A stretch of DNA of 28,792 bases from Actinomycetota bacterium (GCA_043725585.1 JAYSLK010000305.1:1-28792), one strand, 5' to 3'; numbered from the stretch's first letter, positions 2,675 through 9,935 are shown. Program-made: numbers and translations. Notes: generated by a model not told the origin, from the sequence alone.

Positions 2675-3655
2675 ATGGGTCCGTCGCCGCTCGAACGAGT
2701 CACGAATCTCCTGACGCTGTTGCTCGAGACACGTGTGCCGCTGACGCTCAAGCAGGTGTCTCACGAGCTGGCTGGCATGTACCCCGATAAGCACGTTGCC
2801 CTGCGGGGGGCGTTCGAGCGCGACAAGGCGCTCCTGCGCGACATCGGTGTGCCCATCGAGACCGAGGTGTTGGGTGGCGATCAAGCTGGTGAGACGGCGT
2901 ATCGCATCGATCGCGATCGGTACGAACTCCGTGGACTGCACCTCGATGACGATGAACGTCACGCGCTCCAGATGGCGGTCGCGACGATCAGATCGGACGC
3001 CGGCCAGGAGGGTCTGTGGAAGCTCGGCGGCTCGGTGCTGGCCAGCTCGTCGGTGGTGACCAACGTGGTCCAACACGTTGCCCTCCCGATCCTGCGGGCC
3101 GCATCGGGCAGTCGCAACGCGGTCACCTTTCGTTACCGCGGGATCGAGCGCGAGCTCCACCCGTACGGGCTGTTGCTCCGAGAGGGATTCTGGTACGCCA
3201 TCGGTCACGATCGAGACCATGCCGAGGTGCGCACCTACCGCGTCGATCGGATCGAGGGCGATGTGGTGTCGCACCCGAACAAGACGTTCGAGCGTCCCGA
3301 GGGTTTCGACGTTCGTGCTGCGTTCCCCGCCGATGCCAAGCTCCTGGGTGAGTCCGACGATGGTGCCGGCACCGCCGAAGTGGCCGTCGATCCACCGCTC
3401 GCCGACGTGGTTCGAGCCGAACTGGGCGCTGCTTCCGTGGCGCGCGAGGACGCAGGCGTCGTGGTGTTCAACGTGCCGTGTGTGAACCGAGACGCGTTCC
3501 GTTCCTGGGTGCTCGGCCTCGGTGCTCGCGCCGAGGTGCTCGGACCTCCGCAGGTCCGCGCCGACCTGGTCGCATGGTTGCGGTCGGTCGCCGCCCTGCC
3601 TGGTCACCCCCCACACCCGCAAGCCGACGCTGACCCGCAAGCCGGTGCGACATGA
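2675..3655 (+). CDS. pafB: WYL-domain transcriptional regulator, PafB-like
   Basis: N-terminal HTH with FERDKALLRDIGVPIET and YRID; WYL core PYGLLLREGFWYAIGHD, RTYRVDRI; WCX-like C-terminus. TACATT lies 7 nt before ATG 2675. Confidence 0.88.
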   Translation: MGPSPLERVTNLLTLLLETRVPLTLKQVSHELAGMYPDKHVALRGAFERDKALLRDIGVPIETEVLGGDQAGETAYRIDRDRYELRGLHLDDDERHALQMAVATIRSDAGQEGLWKLGGSVLASSSVVTNVVQHVALPILRAASGSRNAVTFRYRGIERELHPYGLLLREGFWYAIGHDRDHAEVRTYRVDRIEGDVVSHPNKTFERPEGFDVRAAFPADAKLLGESDDGAGTAEVAVDPPLADVVRAELGAASVAREDAGVVVFNVPCVNRDAFRSWVLGLGARAEVLGPPQVRADLVAWLRSVAALPGHPPHPQADADPQAGAT

Positions 3656-4605
3656 CCCAGAAGGGACCGTCGTCGCTCAAGGTGCGGCTGCGTCGGCTGC
3701 TCGTGATCCTTCCGTGGCTCGCAGAGCGGGGCAGTGCATCGCTGGCCGAGATGTGCGAGCGATTCCAGATCAGCGAGAAAGAGCTCGTCGCCGATCTCGA
3801 ACAGGCGGCGATGTGTGGGTTGCCGCCGTTCCTCGACGAGTTGGTCGACCTGTACATCGATGACGATGGCGTCGCCCACATCGACGTCCCTCGCTTCTTC
3901 ACCCGGCCGTTGCGGCTCACCGCTCCCGAAGGCTTCTCGCTGCTGATGGCAGGACGGCATGCGCTCGCACTGCCCGGTGCTGAGGCCGATGGGCCGCTGG
4001 CTCGGGCACTTGCCAAGCTCGAAGCCGTGCTCGGATCTGATGGCATGGTGCTCGACCTGGCTCAGCCGGCCTCGACCGCTGAGTTGATGGCAGCGGTCAC
4101 GACGGCGGCCGAGGTCAGCATCTCCTACGTGTCGGCGTCGAGCGACGAAGTGTCCGAGCGAATCATCGTGCCGCGCGCGGTCTTCTCCGATCGAGGCCGT
4201 TGGTACGTGCTCGCCGATGACGATCGTTCGCGGGAGGAACGCACCTTCCGCATCGATCGGATCCTCGCGTGCGAGACGACCGGTCGGCATGCCCAGGCCC
4301 GGGAGGTGAGGGTGCCGAGCGGTGATGACTGGTTCGACGACCTGCCTGCGATGGCCACGGTGACGTTGCGGGTTGCCCCGGCGGGTCGGTGGGTGGTGGA
4401 GCGATTCCCCGTTCGTTCGGTACGCGACCACGAATCGGGCGACGGTTCGCTCGTGGTGGAGATGGCCGTGGTGAGCGAAGGTTGGCTGCGCCAGGTGCTC
4501 GTTCGGCTCGGACGGGATGCGGCCGTGCTCGCTCCCGACGAGTGGTGCGACCTCGGCGCTCGCGCCGCTGCCGAGCTGCTCGCAGCCCGCTACGTCGCCG
4601 ACTGA
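3652..4605 (+). CDS. pafC: WYL-domain transcriptional regulator, PafC-like
   Basis: RLRRLLVILPWL, MCGLPPF..DELVDL, RPLRLTAPE, WYVLA, RTFRIDRI; ATGA overlap with pafB. Confidence 0.88.
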   Translation: MTQKGPSSLKVRLRRLLVILPWLAERGSASLAEMCERFQISEKELVADLEQAAMCGLPPFLDELVDLYIDDDGVAHIDVPRFFTRPLRLTAPEGFSLLMAGRHALALPGAEADGPLARALAKLEAVLGSDGMVLDLAQPASTAELMAAVTTAAEVSISYVSASSDEVSERIIVPRAVFSDRGRWYVLADDDRSREERTFRIDRILACETTGRHAQAREVRVPSGDDWFDDLPAMATVTLRVAPAGRWVVERFPVRSVRDHESGDGSLVVEMAVVSEGWLRQVLVRLGRDAAVLAPDEWCDLGARAAAELLAARYVAD

Positions 4606-7469: not shown

Positions 7470-8018
7470 TCACAGGGTGTCGGGGATGCCGTCGTCGAGC
7501 TGAACCCCGCAGCTGTTCAGCGCCATCGACACGAGGTGGTAGTTGCCGACGGTGAAGATCAGGTCGAGCATCTGTTCCGTGTCGTAGCGGCCGGCGAGGG
7601 TGGCCCAGGTGACGTCGGAGATCTTGCTGTCATCGTGCAGTTCGTCGACGGCGCGGAGAAGTGCTGCGTCGAATGACGACCAGGCTGGATGATCCGGGCC
7701 GGCCTTCACCCGGTCGATCTCGTCGACGGTGATGTCGCACCGCTGCGCGATCACGTGATGCTGGCCGAACTCGTACGGTGCCGAACAACGGACGCCGACG
7801 CGAAGGATCAACAGTTCGCGATCGCGCGGTGCGAGCGTGTTCTTCGACATCACGTGAGTCGCGAACACCAACCACCGGCGCAGCAGCGCAGGATGGTGAG
7901 CGAGGGTTGCGAAGATGTTCAGGGTCGTGCCGTCGGGGGCGCGCATCCCGCCTTTGATGTACAGCTCCACCACGTCGGGCGAGGGATCATCGACAGGGAA
8001 GATGCGAGGTGTGCTCAT
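7470..8018 (-). CDS. Carboxymuconolactone decarboxylase (CMD/AhpD-like) family protein
   Basis: LNIFATLAHHP, RDRELLILR, YEFGQH, AVDELHD, DLIFTVGNYH. Confidence 0.85.
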   Translation of the reverse strand: MSTPRIFPVDDPSPDVVELYIKGGMRAPDGTTLNIFATLAHHPALLRRWLVFATHVMSKNTLAPRDRELLILRVGVRCSAPYEFGQHHVIAQRCDITVDEIDRVKAGPDHPAWSSFDAALLRAVDELHDDSKISDVTWATLAGRYDTEQMLDLIFTVGNYHLVSMALNSCGVQLDDGIPDTL

Positions 8019-8046
8019 GGCTCGATCTTCGCGCCAGACTGAGCCG

Positions 8047-8466
8047 ATGGACGAGGGGTGCGTGTTCTGTGGGATCGTTCACGGTGAGGTGGCGGCCGAT
8101 GTGGTCTTCGACGACGACGTCGCTGTCGCCTTTCTCGATCGATCACCGGTGTTCAAAGGTCACGTCCTCGTGGTGCCGCGCGCACATGTCGTCACGCTCG
8201 CCGATCTCGATACAGCTCTCGTCGGTCCGTTCTTCGAACGAGTTCAGCTCATCTCACGGGCGTTGCCGAGTGCGCTCGATGCGCACGGAACCTTCGTCGC
8301 GAACAACAACGTCGTCAGTCAGAGCGTGGCCCACCTCCACGTGCACATCGTCCCCAGGCGATGGCGCGACGGGCTTCGCGGCTTCTTCTGGCCGCGCCAG
8401 AATTACGTGCCCGGAGAGGCTGAGCGTTACGCCGATGCGATTCGCGCCTCCTTGCGTACAGGCTGA
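8047..8466 (+). CDS. HIT family nucleotide hydrolase
   Basis: CVFC zinc motif, GHVLVVPR, histidine triad HLHVHIV; start at ATG 8047. Confidence 0.93.
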   Translation: MDEGCVFCGIVHGEVAADVVFDDDVAVAFLDRSPVFKGHVLVVPRAHVVTLADLDTALVGPFFERVQLISRALPSALDAHGTFVANNNVVSQSVAHLHVHIVPRRWRDGLRGFFWPRQNYVPGEAERYADAIRASLRTG

Positions 8467-8518
8467 CAACTTGCACTCTCCAGGGGAGCAGATCCGGATC
8501 GCACGAGACGAGCGTCAC

Positions 8519-8597
8519 TCATTGCATTTGCAATGATGAGGGTACTTGCTATTCGTCATCGAAACGGGTTCGATACGCGGGCGTAACGAACCGTTAC
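8519..8597. promoter_or_regulatory. AT-rich HU upstream region with two operator-like palindromes
   Basis: TCATTGCA-tt-TGCAATGA (8519-8536) and GTAACG-aac-CGTTAC (8583-8597). Confidence 0.5.
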
Positions 8598-8633
8598 ACC
8601 GGGAACAACCGATACGAAGAGGTATCAGCAGAC

Positions 8634-8918
8634 ATGACCAAAGCAGAGTTGATCGACGCGGTGGCCACGAAGTCGGGCGTCACCAAGGCTGACGCTGAGC
8701 GCGTCGTTGGTGCGTTCTTCGACATCGTCACGACGACTGCGAAGAAGGGCGACAAGGTTGCGTGGCCGGGCTTCGGCTCGTTCAGCACCTCGAAGTCGAA
8801 GGCTCGCACGGGCCGCAACCCACAGACCGGCGAAGCAGTGAAGATCGCTGCCTCCACCCGGATGAAGTTCACCTCGAGCAGCACGCTCAAGGGTGTTCTC
8901 AACCCCAAGAAGAAGTAA
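8634..8918 (+). CDS. hup: HU family DNA-binding protein, short form with no fused tail
   Basis: MTKAELIDAVA, GFGSF, ARTGRNPQTGE; GAAGAGG ribosome-binding site. Confidence 0.96.
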   Translation: MTKAELIDAVATKSGVTKADAERVVGAFFDIVTTTAKKGDKVAWPGFGSFSTSKSKARTGRNPQTGEAVKIAASTRMKFTSSSTLKGVLNPKKK

Positions 8919-8946
8919 CCCAGGACCAGAGAAGGAACAAACACTG

Positions 8947-9069
8947 ATGGCTGCAAAGAAGGCACCCGCCAAGAAGGCTGCACCGGCCAAGAAGGCTGCA
9001 CCGGCCAAGAAGGCTGCACCGGCCCAGAAGGCTGCACCCGCCAAGAAGGCTGCTGCCAAGAAGAAGTGA
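8947..9069 (+). CDS. 40-aa Lys/Ala/Pro-rich histone H1-like peptide MAAKKAPAKKAAPAKKAAPAKKAAPAQKAAPAKKAAAKKK
   Basis: Own RBS GAAGGAA (8931-8937), ATG, 18-bp tandem units GCCAAGAAGGCTGCACCG, TGA at 9067-9069, then a terminator-like hairpin. Too short for the ORF track. Confidence 0.85.
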   Translation: MAAKKAPAKKAAPAKKAAPAKKAAPAQKAAPAKKAAAKKK

Positions 9070-9096
9070 TTGCCCCGAGCAATTCGGAGCGTTCGC

Positions 9097-9122
9097 AGCG
9101 AGGGGCCTTCGGGCCCCTCGTT
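9097..9122 (+). terminator. Terminator-like hairpin closing the hup-peptide unit
   Basis: CGAGGGGCC-TTCG-GGCCCCTCG (9 bp, cUUCGg loop), extendable by outer pairs. Confidence 0.75.
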
Positions 9123-9158
9123 CGCGTTCCGACGCCTTGACTCGGCAACAATGCTCGG

Positions 9159-9935
9159 ATGGAACTCATCTGCAACGACCTTGTCGACGAGCACTCACAA
9201 CTCGATGAGGTGTTGGCCGAGCTGAGCGAGTCGCAGTGGGGGTTTGCGACCGCCTCGGCCGGATGGGCCATCCGCGACCAGGTGAGCCATCTCTGGTTCT
9301 TCGACCAACGCGCCCTCATGGCGCTCACTGATCCCGGCGAGTTCGAAGACGATGCCAAGCAGCTGATGTCGTCGGGTGGCACCGAAGTCTCCGTGGGGCC
9401 CGGACGAACGATGAGCGGGCGGGAGTTGATCGAGGCGTGGCGGAGCGACCGCGCGCGGCTCGTCCAAGTTGCTCGTGGCGTCGATGCGTCGACTCGAATT
9501 CCGTGGTACGGGCCGGCGATGGGGGCCCGATCGTTCATCACCGCTCGGCTGATGGAGACCTGGGCACATGGGCAGGACGTCTATGACGCTCTCGGCGTGA
9601 CGAGAGAAGCGACGGAGCGGCTTCGTCACGTCGCTCACATCGGAGTGCGCGCTCGACCGTTCAGCTACGCCATTCGCCAGATGGAGTTACCCGATGACGA
9701 CGTCTACGTCGCGCTCACCACACCTTCGGGCGACACCGCGACGTGGGGTCTCCCGACAGCGGCCGATTCGGTACGAGGGCCGATGCTCGACTTCTGCCTC
9801 GTCGTCACTCAACGACGGCATCGCGCCGATACGGCACTCGACATCAGCGGCCCCGCAGCGGAGGAATGGATGGCGATCGCCCAGGCGTTTGCCGGTGCGC
9901 CAGGGCCGGGTCGCACTCCAGGGCAGTTCGGCTGA
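9159..9935 (+). CDS. MDMPI / TIGR03084-type metal-binding protein
   Basis: GWAIRDQVSHL, PWYGPAMGARSFITARLMETWAHGQD, DFCLVVTQRRH. Confidence 0.85.
   Translation: MELICNDLVDEHSQLDEVLAELSESQWGFATASAGWAIRDQVSHLWFFDQRALMALTDPGEFEDDAKQLMSSGGTEVSVGPGRTMSGRELIEAWRSDRARLVQVARGVDASTRIPWYGPAMGARSFITARLMETWAHGQDVYDALGVTREATERLRHVAHIGVRARPFSYAIRQMELPDDDVYVALTTPSGDTATWGLPTAADSVRGPMLDFCLVVTQRRHRADTALDISGPAAEEWMAIAQAFAGAPGPGRTPGQFG

What the first reader, a model, noticed from the sequence alone, without database searches (positions are those of the whole stretch)
8634..9122. Split HupB: HU followed by a separately encoded 40-aa histone H1-like AKKAAP peptide
Seen: HU stops at TAA 8918. After 28 nt, a different-frame ORF with its own RBS encodes 40 aa (19 Ala, 14 Lys, 5 Pro, no acidic residue), and a UUCG hairpin follows the peptide, not HU. 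Known: mycobacterial HupB and Streptomyces HupS carry PAKK-type repeats as a fused C-terminal tail that aids DNA compaction and is post-translationally modified. Inference: a two-gene nucleoid system supplying the tail in trans as a free polycation, with tunable stoichiometry and a length set by an 18-bp tandem repeat. Gene callers would usually miss it. This is the best candidate here for an undescribed system.
Basis: partly seen in the sequence, partly recalled or inferred. Interest (0 to 1): 0.85.

Follow-up and report, generated by a model that had tools for sequence, protein, structure and literature searches.

The report
HU gene with separate lysine-rich tail gene
In this uncultured freshwater or sediment actinobacterium (class Acidimicrobiia), the DNA-packaging protein HU is followed in the same transcript by a separate small gene for a 40-residue lysine/alanine/proline peptide that resembles the histone-H1-like tail mycobacteria fuse to HU; this two-gene layout is conserved across the class, so it is real, but what the free peptide does is untested.

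Summary
The hup gene (8634-8918, Pfam HU E 3e-31) stops at TAA. After 28 nt, a Shine-Dalgarno-led ATG opens a 40-codon ORF (8947-9069) with 19 Ala, 14 Lys and 5 Pro, built on 5.1 copies of an 18-bp repeat. A strong UUCG hairpin follows it.

It is not an assembly artefact. An independent assembly of a DNA run matches the junction exactly. About 95 of 110 related loci, plus 31 of 60 class-wide genomes (15 families), carry the same HU-stop / start-codon / Lys-Ala ORF layout.

All three relative reading frames occur, and 20 of 105 junctions have a stop inside the spacer, so frameshifting or readthrough is excluded as the general mechanism. The Lys/Ala frame is under strong purifying selection (pN/pS 0.05, against 0.42 and 12 in the other frames). 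Metatranscriptome contigs bridge hup and the ORF but do not cover the flanks.

Three points need correcting:
- The HU core is not shown to be HupB-type; it is closer to tail-less HupA-type HU.
- Gene callers do call the ORF.
- The peptide's function and its stoichiometry with HU are untested.

I found no paper describing this. The same scan has already reported it in other Acidimicrobiia genomes. It is a new variant of a known kind.

The parts
8519..8597 (+). Conserved hup upstream region. It holds an AT-rich palindrome (core TTGCATTTGCAA, 8522-8533), a -35-like TTGCTA (8546-8551), a conserved GTTCGATA (8568-8575), and a small inverted repeat GTAACG-N3-CGTTAC (8583-8597).
   Evidence: These blocks are invariant or covarying in an alignment of 16 congeners. 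The small hairpin folds at -9.5 kcal/mol, z -2.2. RNA contigs begin near 8598-8607. The promoter role is inferred; the sigma-70 consensus scan found nothing.
8634..8918 (+). hup, an HU-family DNA-binding protein of 94 aa that ends ...LNPKKK and stops at TAA.
   Evidence: PF00216 E 3.2e-31, full length. It is the only HU match in the 79%-complete genome. The best solved relatives are bacterial HU proteins.
8919..8946 (+). 28-nt intercistronic spacer with a Shine-Dalgarno-like GAAGGA (8930-8935). It has no terminator.
   Evidence: unstructured, -1.4 kcal/mol. Purine-rich SD motifs are conserved ahead of the start codon in relatives. Median spacer energy across 67 loci is -1.3 kcal/mol.
8947..9069 (+). 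Small gene for a 40-aa Lys/Ala/Pro polycation that begins MAAKKAPAKK and ends AAAKKK (stop TGA). It resembles a stand-alone histone-H1-like tail.
   Evidence: ORF list and composition. Orthologues lie downstream of hup in about 125 loci. pN/pS is 0.052 in this frame, against 0.415 and 12.4 in the other two. RNA contigs from two studies run from hup into it. A gene is called here on other contigs.
8962..9053 (+). 18-bp tandem repeat, 5.1 copies, each encoding one AAPAKK unit. It drives length variation.
   Evidence: TRF score 163, 94% matches. Unit-number differences among near-identical strains. Contigs often end inside the array.
9094..9126 (+). GC-rich hairpin with a UUCG tetraloop, the likely terminator or 3'-end stabiliser of the hup-tail transcript. 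No U-tract follows in this genome.
   Evidence: -28.6 kcal/mol, z -4.2. A hairpin of -21 to -35 kcal/mol lies 0-50 nt after the tail ORF in 67 of 67 complete loci, with different stem sequences. In low-GC relatives it is followed by T-runs.

Best explanation
hup and the small ORF form one bicistronic operon. It makes two separate proteins: a standard 94-aa HU, and a free, intrinsically disordered 40-aa polycation (charge about +13) of AAPAKK repeats.

**Shown here**
- The two ORFs are separately initiated.
- The layout is conserved across the class Acidimicrobiia.
- The Lys/Ala frame is under strong purifying selection.
- RNA-library contigs cover hup plus the ORF but not the neighbouring genes.
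- A strong hairpin closes the unit after the small ORF.
- The array changes length quickly by gain and loss of repeat units.

**Inferred**
- The peptide binds DNA without sequence preference, like the C-terminal tail of mycobacterial HupB/MDP1, Streptomyces HupS or eukaryotic H1.
- It neutralises charge and helps HU-coated DNA to condense, so the cell gets the function of a tailed HU from two untethered parts.

Natural fusions of HU and tail in sister lineages of the same HU clade argue that the two products work together. Within this clade the split form dominates, and at least one fused form (L131) is nested among split forms. So here a fusion probably arose from a split operon rather than the reverse.
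For: **Anatomy:**

**Conservation**
- Twenty same-genus genomes have the HU stop followed by a start-codon-led AKKAAP ORF.
- 89 of 110 loci passed an automatic filter. At least six of the failures are also split on inspection.
- 31 of 60 class-wide genomes are split. This includes 16 of 16 sampled genomes (9 genera) of the window's family, and 14 families in that sample, with a fifteenth seen.

**Independent initiation:** across 105 distinct junctions:
- the relative frames 0/1/2 occur 22/41/42 times;
- ATG starts 56 and GTG starts 49;
- 20 junctions have a stop in the tail frame inside the spacer.

**Selection:** over 73 orthologue pairs, pS is 0.45 and pN 0.024, giving pN/pS 0.052 in the Lys/Ala frame. 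The same procedure gives 0.415 and 12.4 in the other two frames.

**Junction confirmed:** a DNA-run contig covers 8863-8996 with 0 differences at depth 16.

**Transcription**
- RNA contigs span 8607-8979 (run X15) and 8679-9050 (run X21, depth 59), from two different studies.
- RNA depth is zero over 8300-8586 and 9079-9500, whereas the DNA run covers both stretches at about 17x.

**Terminator:** a hairpin follows the tail ORF in 67 of 67 loci (median -27.8 kcal/mol), while the hup-tail spacers are unstructured (median -1.3).

**Rosetta-stone fusions:** fused forms occur inside the same HU clade (L022, L027-L029, L131, L137). L131 sits inside a starred clade of 47 split rows.

**Known biology:** the fused tail raises the DNA affinity, DNA protection and compaction of HupB/MDP1 (PMC2932737; PMC5974015).
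Against: - There is no direct evidence of translation (no Ribo-seq or proteomics) and no DNA-binding data for the free peptide.
- For mycobacterial MDP1, the isolated disordered tail and the isolated HU domain are each reported to have only limited DNA affinity (PMC5974015). An untethered tail may therefore not reproduce the fused function.
- The RNA evidence comes from assembled contigs of close relatives (95-98% identical), not from reads of this strain. A contig across two genes does not prove a single transcript.
- The hairpin lacks a U-tract in this genome.
- A few relatives in the same HU clade have no tail gene next to hup (L021, L082, L096, L129), so the partnership is not obligatory.
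- The 40-aa length may be an assembly under-count of repeat units.
Confidence: 0.7

Rival explanations
1. Assembly or sequencing artefact: the real gene is one fused hupB-like ORF, and a one-base error near 8900-8950 split it.
For: The tail frame is open back to 8866 and overlaps the end of hup, so a single indel would fuse them. Repeat arrays in some relatives do show frame hopping typical of indel errors (L004, L048).
Against: An independent assembly of a DNA run reproduces 8863-8996 exactly. About 125 loci from unrelated projects have the same stop-plus-start layout, in all three relative frames. Start codons and SD motifs are conserved.
Confidence: 0.02
2. Programmed recoding: ribosomes frameshift on the AAG-AAG-AAG run, or read through the hup stop, to make a fused HU-tail protein. 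The separate ORF would be incidental.
For: In the window the +1 frame is open from 8866 through the spacer into the tail, and hup ends in a lysine-codon run. 15 of 105 junctions are in frame and separated only by the hup stop.
Against: The shift needed differs between close relatives (frames 0/1/2 = 22/41/42). 20 of 105 junctions have a stop in the tail frame inside the spacer. The translated spacer is not conserved, whereas an SD and an ATG or GTG always are. A minor fused product in some species is not excluded.
Confidence: 0.04
3. The peptide is a real, separate protein, but its main target is not HU-bound DNA. It could act as a general polyanion binder (RNA, ribosomes, polyphosphate, cell-envelope polymers), or as an independent H1-like nucleoid protein that merely shares a promoter with hup.
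For: Free-standing Lys/Ala micro-proteins occur in many genomic contexts unrelated to HU (earlier notes of this scan). In this genome AKKA-type tails are also attached to other proteins, on contigs C455 and C785. The isolated MDP1 tail binds DNA weakly. Some relatives keep hup without the tail gene.
Against: Class-wide synteny directly downstream of hup, short or overlapping gaps (-4 to +92 nt, median 27) and a shared terminator. HU and tail have fused repeatedly in the same HU clade and in HupB/HupS.
Confidence: 0.2
4. The ORF is not translated. The repeat is a DNA or RNA element in the hup 3' UTR, for example a structured or protein-binding repeat.
For: All three frames are open inside the repeat, so openness alone is uninformative. 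There is no Pfam, NCBIfam or Rfam hit above threshold.
Against: Changes concentrate at synonymous sites of one frame only (pN/pS 0.05 with pS 0.45). Lys/Ala composition is kept across lineages with very different repeat units. Start codon, SD and a common ...AAAKKK stop context are conserved.
Confidence: 0.03

Closest known systems
Mycobacterial HupB / MDP1 / Hlp (Rv2986c type) and Streptomyces HupS: two-domain HU with a fused Lys/Ala/Pro tail
   Same: An HU fold plus a PAKKA-type, acid-free, disordered polycationic repeat sequence, expressed from one locus. In those proteins the tail raises DNA affinity, DNA protection and compaction (PMC2932737, PMC5974015, PMC5676037).
   Different: Here the tail is a separate polypeptide with its own start codon. 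The HU core is only 35-38% identical to HupB/HupS-type cores and is not placed with them in the free tree. At 40 aa the tail is much shorter than the roughly 110-aa fused tails.
HupA-type tail-less actinobacterial HU (clade HU_acti_0 of Kamashev et al. 2017, PMC5683647)
   Same: About 94 aa with no fused tail. It has the highest identity to the window's HU among Actinomycetes HUs (41-44%) and is the sister group in the free tree. The paper assigns Acidimicrobiia to this clade.
   Different: HupA-type genes in the sampled genomes have no Lys/Ala ORF downstream. The paper does not mention a separate tail gene.
Free-standing bacterial histone-H1-like proteins: Chlamydia Hc2/HctB (PF07382, NF038052), the Burkholderia-type H1-like protein (NF038053), Pseudomonas AlgP
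   Same: Stand-alone Lys/Ala-rich repeat proteins whose length varies with repeat number (Hc2: PMC2848022). Longer orthologues of the tail give sub-threshold, composition-driven hits to these models.
   Different: Scores lie well below the curated cut-offs (28 vs 40 bits; 41 vs 80 bits), and the 40-aa product gives no hit at all. Those proteins are not encoded in an operon with hup (from my own knowledge; not tested here).
C-terminal domain of eukaryotic linker histone H1
   Same: Lys/Ala/Pro-rich composition, intrinsic disorder, and a presumed role in charge neutralisation of DNA.
   Different: No globular winged-helix domain and no evolutionary relationship shown. This is an analogy only.
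Earlier notes of this same scan on other Acidimicrobiia genomes (e1-3977640, e1-4428833, e1-5069094, e1-4268615, e1-4374304)
   Same: The same split HU plus Lys/Ala micro-gene layout, judged conserved and co-transcribed.
   Different: Different genomes. These are AI notes, not publications. I re-derived conservation, selection and transcription independently here, and added the test of HU-core placement.

Membership tests
HU/IHF family (Pfam PF00216 Bac_DNA_binding) | Full-length match to the 90-residue HU fold profile above the gathering score | tested here: met
   107.9 bits against a cut-off of 22.4, covering 1-90 of 90 positions. Solved HU structures match at E 1e-20.
Two-domain actinobacterial HU (HupB/MDP1/Hlp, HupS; clade HU_acti_C) | HU core and Lys/Ala/Pro tail in one polypeptide | tested here: not met
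   TAA at 8916-8918, then a separate ATG at 8947 in another frame. The junction is confirmed by an independent assembly and conserved in relatives.
Two-domain actinobacterial HU (HupB/MDP1/Hlp, HupS; clade HU_acti_C) | HU core belongs to the HupB/HupS-type clade rather than the HupA-type clade | tested here: inconclusive
   Identity is 35-38% to HupB/HupS-type cores and 41-44% to HupA-type cores. The free tree places the tail-linked Acidimicrobiia clade beside the HupA type (SH-aLRT 90, not starred). The AU test rejects neither constraint (p 0.60 and 0.80). PMC5683647 assigns Acidimicrobiia to HU_acti_0.
Two-domain actinobacterial HU (HupB/MDP1/Hlp, HupS; clade HU_acti_C) | PAKKA-type acid-free Lys/Ala/Pro repeat sequence | tested here: met
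   A19 K14 P5 with no Asp or Glu, in AAPAKK units.
Histone H1-like nucleoprotein Hc2 (PF07382 / NF038052) | Profile match above the curated cut-off | tested here: not met
   No hit for the 40-aa product. Longer orthologues score 22-28 bits against a cut-off of 40, and 11-17 bits against 135.
Burkholderia-type histone H1-like DNA-binding protein (NF038053) | Profile match above the curated cut-off | tested here: not met
   Orthologues score 10-41 bits against a cut-off of 80. The window's peptide gives no hit.
Bicistronic operon (co-transcription of hup and the tail gene) | No terminator between the genes, a shared terminator after the second gene, and RNA spanning the junction | tested here: met
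   The spacer is unstructured. A hairpin follows the tail ORF in 67 of 67 loci. RNA contigs from two studies bridge the junction while the flanks have zero RNA depth. Caveat: these are assembled contigs of close relatives.
Canonical intrinsic (Rho-independent) terminator | GC-rich hairpin immediately followed by a U-tract | tested here: inconclusive
   The hairpin is present (z -4.2). No T-run follows it in the window, and the consensus scan does not report it. In low-GC relatives the equivalent hairpin is followed by T-runs.
Translated small protein | Direct evidence of translation (ribosome footprints or peptide detection) | not testable with these tools
   Only indirect evidence is available: SD plus start-codon conservation, and frame-specific purifying selection.

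The most novel reading that the evidence does not exclude
Acidimicrobiia run a two-component, non-covalent 'HU plus linker-histone-like peptide' chromatin system. The free tail is dosed and length-tuned independently of HU, through its own ribosome-binding site and a fast-evolving repeat array. This split operon is the ancestral state of the clade. HupB-like fused proteins arise from it repeatedly by loss of the hup stop codon. The classic fused HupB/HupS architecture of other Actinomycetota may have started the same way.
Probability: 0.3. Interest if true: 0.7.

Novelty: new variant of a known kind. Interest (0 to 1): 0.55.

Why it matters
The lysine-rich tail of mycobacterial HupB/MDP1 has been reported as indispensable. 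Published in-vitro work says that neither the HU domain nor the tail binds DNA well when separated. A whole bacterial class that encodes the two parts as separate, co-expressed proteins is therefore a natural experiment on whether tethering is needed.

Some close relatives have re-fused the two parts and others have lost the tail gene, which gives ready-made comparisons. Cultured relatives exist, such as Ilumatobacter strains, so the question can be tested at the bench.

The finding also corrects the published view that Acidimicrobiia HU is simply 'tail-less'. It adds to a growing set of very small, highly charged proteins that homology-based annotation cannot name. Finally, the fast repeat-number change offers a simple heritable way to vary a chromatin protein's charge.

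Tried and rejected
- **Homology search with the 40-aa peptide** against 5.8 billion protein clusters. 8000 candidates were scored and none passed E 0.001; the composition filter removes them. The result is uninformative.
- **Exact look-up** of the peptide and of ten orthologous tails. None is in the 15-billion-protein collection. I do not read this as 'never called', because one search shows genes called at this position on other contigs.
- **Exact look-up of the HU of a complete-genome relative (L124)**, to see its annotation. It is not on record.
- **Pfam, NCBIfam and Rfam on the peptide and region.** Nothing passed threshold. The weak Rfam hits (a CRISPR repeat on the hairpin, ssnA on the repeat) are chance.
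- **Sigma-70 consensus scan.** It found no promoter and did not report the hairpin as a terminator. I therefore relied on comparative alignment and folding instead.
- **AU tests of HU-core placement.** These were inconclusive with only 90 columns.
- **Same-length orthologue pairs for codon-position counts.** Only 5 pairs were available (11 of 14 differences at position 3). I replaced this with the three-frame pN/pS comparison.
- **Complex prediction of HU with the peptide.** I did not run it. I do not claim that the two proteins bind each other, and a disordered polycation is a poor subject for that test.
- **Assembly artefact and programmed frameshift.** Both were considered and rejected; see the rival explanations.

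Full report
**1. What is in the sequence**

- The window holds a 94-aa ORF at 8634-8918 that ends ...LNPKKK and stops at TAA. It is a full-length HU: PF00216 at 107.9 bits, E 3e-31. It is the only HU match in this 79%-complete, 906-contig genome.
- After a 28-nt purine-rich spacer carrying GAAGGA (8930-8935), an ATG at 8947 opens a 40-codon ORF in the +1 frame, ending at TGA 9067-9069.
- The product has 19 Ala, 14 Lys, 5 Pro, 1 Met and 1 Gln, no acidic residue, and a charge of about +13.5.
- It is built on 5.1 copies of an 18-bp unit, with 94% matches, at 8962-9053.
- A hairpin with a UUCG loop lies at about 9094-9126: -28.6 kcal/mol, z -4.2, with 0 of 200 shuffles as stable. The spacer between the two ORFs is unstructured.

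**2. Is it an artefact?**

No.

- Contigs assembled independently from a public DNA run (probably the source sample) match the window with zero differences over 8300-8771, 8768-8888, 8863-8996 and 9026-9500, at depth about 16-18. The hup stop, the spacer and the ATG are therefore confirmed.
- The interior of the repeat (8996-9026) is not bridged, so the copy number stays unverified.
- The comparative evidence is more decisive. All 20 same-genus genomes that have this HU stop it at ...NPKKK(K), and a start-codon-led Lys/Ala/Pro ORF follows.
- In a set of 110 loci, 80 of them from named GTDB species of Ilumatobacteraceae, Acidimicrobiaceae and Acidimicrobiales MAGs, 89 passed an automatic filter for such an ORF.
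- At least six more are also split on inspection. They had failed because of N gaps, Thr/Ser-rich tails, or frame hopping inside the array.
- The record titles place the organism in the class Acidimicrobiia, from freshwater and sediment samples.

**3. Independent initiation, not recoding**

Across 105 distinct junctions:
- the tail ORF lies in frame 0, 1 or 2 relative to hup in 22, 41 and 42 cases;
- it starts with ATG in 56 cases and GTG in 49;
- the gap is -4 to +92 nt, median 27;
- in 20 cases a stop codon in the tail frame lies inside the spacer.

Purine-rich SD motifs (GGAAGGA, AAGGAG) precede the start throughout. No single frameshift or readthrough mechanism could serve all these genomes. 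A minor fused product in individual species is not excluded.

**4. Protein-level selection**

- All three frames are open inside such repeats, so I applied one procedure to each frame: translate, align globally, and count synonymous and non-synonymous differences by the Nei-Gojobori method. I used 73 pairs of complete orthologous tails.
- The Lys/Ala frame gives pS 0.451, pN 0.024 and pN/pS 0.052. The other two frames give 0.415 and 12.4.
- The pairs are not independent, but the contrast between frames is very large.
- Composition is also kept in lineages whose repeat units differ completely: AAPAKK here, AAKKRKKAAKKAPAKRK-type in low-GC freshwater lineages, and TARK/PAKR-rich in other orders.

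**5. One transcription unit**

- In 67 of 67 complete, distinct loci the strongest 40-nt fold within 110 nt after the tail ORF is a 10-14-bp GC-rich hairpin. Energies run from -21 to -35 kcal/mol, median -27.8, against -15.9 for a control stretch inside hup.
- Stem sequences differ between lineages. In low-GC relatives the hairpin is followed by T-runs, which makes it a canonical intrinsic terminator.
- The hup-tail spacers are unstructured, median -1.3 kcal/mol.
- Contigs from metatranscriptome runs of two different studies run from the hup leader or body into the tail ORF. One spans 8607-8979 with 9 differences; the other spans 8679-9050 at depth 59 with 19 differences. They come from close relatives.
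- All three RNA runs have zero depth over the flanking genes (8300-8586 and 9079-9500), which the DNA run covers evenly.
- This fits a short, abundant hup-tail mRNA and argues against DNA carry-over. It is not read-level proof of a single transcript in this strain.

**6. Length variation**

HU proteins 99-100% identical to the window's are followed by tails of several lengths:
- 40 aa in the window;
- 45 aa in L003;
- 87 aa in L002;
- 53 aa on an 89.6-kb ENA contig;
- at least 59 aa in L111, where the contig ends inside the array.

Many contigs break inside the array. Repeat-unit gain and loss is fast. It also makes short-read copy numbers unreliable, including the 40 aa reported here.

**7. 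Spread and direction of change**

- I sampled 60 high-quality genomes across the class (regions fetched). The best HU locus was split in 31, fused in 5, and HU-only in 24.
- The split form occurred in 16 of 16 sampled genomes (9 genera) of the window's family, and in 14 families in that sample. A fifteenth family was seen.
- In other orders the tail proteins are 64-181 aa and often share an N-terminus around ...PPAKK/R.
- I built a maximum-likelihood tree of 141 HU cores (90 columns, quick search; support is limited).
  - All tail-linked Acidimicrobiia HUs fall in one clade of 71 rows: 59 split, 6 fused and 6 HU-only (SH-aLRT 86).
  - The window lies in a starred sub-clade (97) of 47 split, 2 HU-only and 1 fused row.
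  - The fused L131 is nested among split forms. Within this clade, at least that fusion is most simply derived from a split operon.
- Several split genomes have gaps of -4 to +7 nt, one mutation away from fusion.
- Losses also occur. L096 keeps the same downstream neighbour, a DinB/MDMPI-type gene, but has no tail gene.
- One row of the tree (L184, genome G290) comes from a genome flagged as unpublished.

**8. Is it a 'split HupB'?**

This is not shown.

- I used tool-derived sequences from sampled Actinomycetota. The window's HU is 35-38% identical to mycobacterium-type and Streptomyces HupS-type fused cores, and 41-44% identical to Streptomyces HupA-type tail-less HU.
- Among solved structures, the M. 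tuberculosis HU domain (4PT4) scores 49.5 bits, below many ordinary HUs at up to 76.7 bits.
- In the free tree the tail-linked Acidimicrobiia clade is sister to the HupA-type clade (SH-aLRT 90), and the HupB/HupS-type clade lies elsewhere.
- AU tests reject neither alternative: p 0.60 for grouping with the HupB/S type, p 0.80 with the HupA type.
- Kamashev et al. 2017 state that Acidimicrobiia contain only the tail-less clade HU_acti_0 (PMC5683647). That agrees with my placement, and it shows the separate tail gene was not noticed there.
- The HU-tail association in Acidimicrobiia may therefore be independent of the HupB/HupS fusion, or it may reflect an older shared state. The data cannot tell.

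**9. Mechanism**

*Shown:* two separately initiated genes, co-expressed, conserved, with the small one selected as a Lys/Ala/Pro polypeptide.

*Inferred from known biology of the fused proteins:*
- The peptide is a disordered polycation that binds DNA non-specifically and helps HU-bound DNA condense.
- In M. tuberculosis the tail gives HupB tighter and more protective DNA binding (PMC2932737).
- In M. smegmatis the tail is needed for genome organisation. The same paper notes that the isolated HU domain or isolated tail have only limited DNA affinity in vitro (PMC5974015).
- That last point is the main reason for caution, and also the main reason the natural split is interesting.

The recurrent natural fusions support a functional link between the two products. 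I put about 0.9 on the genomic claims and about 0.6 on the DNA-condensation role, giving 0.7 overall.

**10. Gene calling and databases**

- A gene is called at exactly +29 after the identical HU on five other contigs, from NCBI and ENA. The statement that gene callers would miss it is therefore wrong as a generality.
- Even so, the exact 40-aa product and ten orthologues are absent from a 15-billion-protein collection.
- Profile and homology tools return nothing usable. The family is effectively un-nameable by standard annotation.

**11. Novelty**

- Five full-text literature searches (one search returned only an error) found much on fused HupB/HupS tails. None described a separate tail gene next to hup or in Acidimicrobiia.
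- The absence of a paper in this library is not proof that none exists.
- This same scan has already reported the layout in other Acidimicrobiia genomes (e1-3977640, e1-4428833, e1-5069094, and first-reader notes e1-4268615 and e1-4374304). My results agree with those notes and were derived independently.
- Both components are of known kinds: HU, and H1-like Lys/Ala repeat proteins. What is new is the conserved operon and the untethered arrangement. I rate it a new variant of a known kind, with moderate interest.

Noticed in passing
window 8519-8597: The hup upstream region is strongly conserved in 16 congeners. It contains an AT-rich palindrome (core TTGCATTTGCAA, 8522-8533), a -35-like TTGCTA, a conserved GTTCGATA block, and a small inverted repeat GTAACG-N3-CGTTAC (8583-8597). 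The inverted repeat covaries in one lineage (GCAAC...GTTGC). This looks like a promoter with an operator-like site and a 5'-terminal stem-loop. RNA contigs begin near 8598-8607.
   Followed up: partly
L096 (MAG contig JACDHN010000202.1), downstream of its hup: This relative (HU 69% identical) keeps the same downstream neighbour as the window, a DinB/MDMPI-type gene, but has no Lys/Ala ORF between them. It is a natural loss of the tail gene in conserved synteny. L021 and L082 also lack the ORF.
   Followed up: partly
L004 (same genus) and L048 (Ilumatobacteraceae MAG MFD05442), tail arrays: The Lys/Ala reading hops between frames several times inside the repeat array, and in L048 the hup stop is also missing. 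This is most likely indel errors in the repeat during assembly. Real decay is not excluded.
   Followed up: no
own genome contigs C455 (minus strand, about 1214-1834 on that strand), C785 (minus strand, about 3405-3941) and C711 (plus strand, 1905-2312): Other proteins of this organism carry C-terminal PAKKAPAKK-type or Lys/Ala/Thr-rich tails. The peptide after hup is the only stand-alone Lys/Ala ORF found in the 79%-complete genome.
   Followed up: no
L144-L168 (other orders of Acidimicrobiia), tail genes downstream of hup: Outside the window's order the tail proteins are 64-181 aa, richer in Arg and Thr, and share a conserved N-terminal stretch around V-(T/P/S)-(V/M)-P-P-A-K-(K/R). The true start may be the codon just before PPAK.
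   Followed up: no
window 9025-9027: One repeat unit has CAG (Gln) where all the others have AAG (Lys). It is the only non-Lys/Ala/Pro residue after the initiator Met.
   Followed up: no
window 7915-8466 and 9159-9935: The flanking genes are a HIT-family hydrolase (PF01230) upstream and a DinB/mycothiol-dependent maleylpyruvate isomerase N-terminal domain protein (PF11716) downstream. The same neighbours occur on contigs of close relatives.
   Followed up: partly
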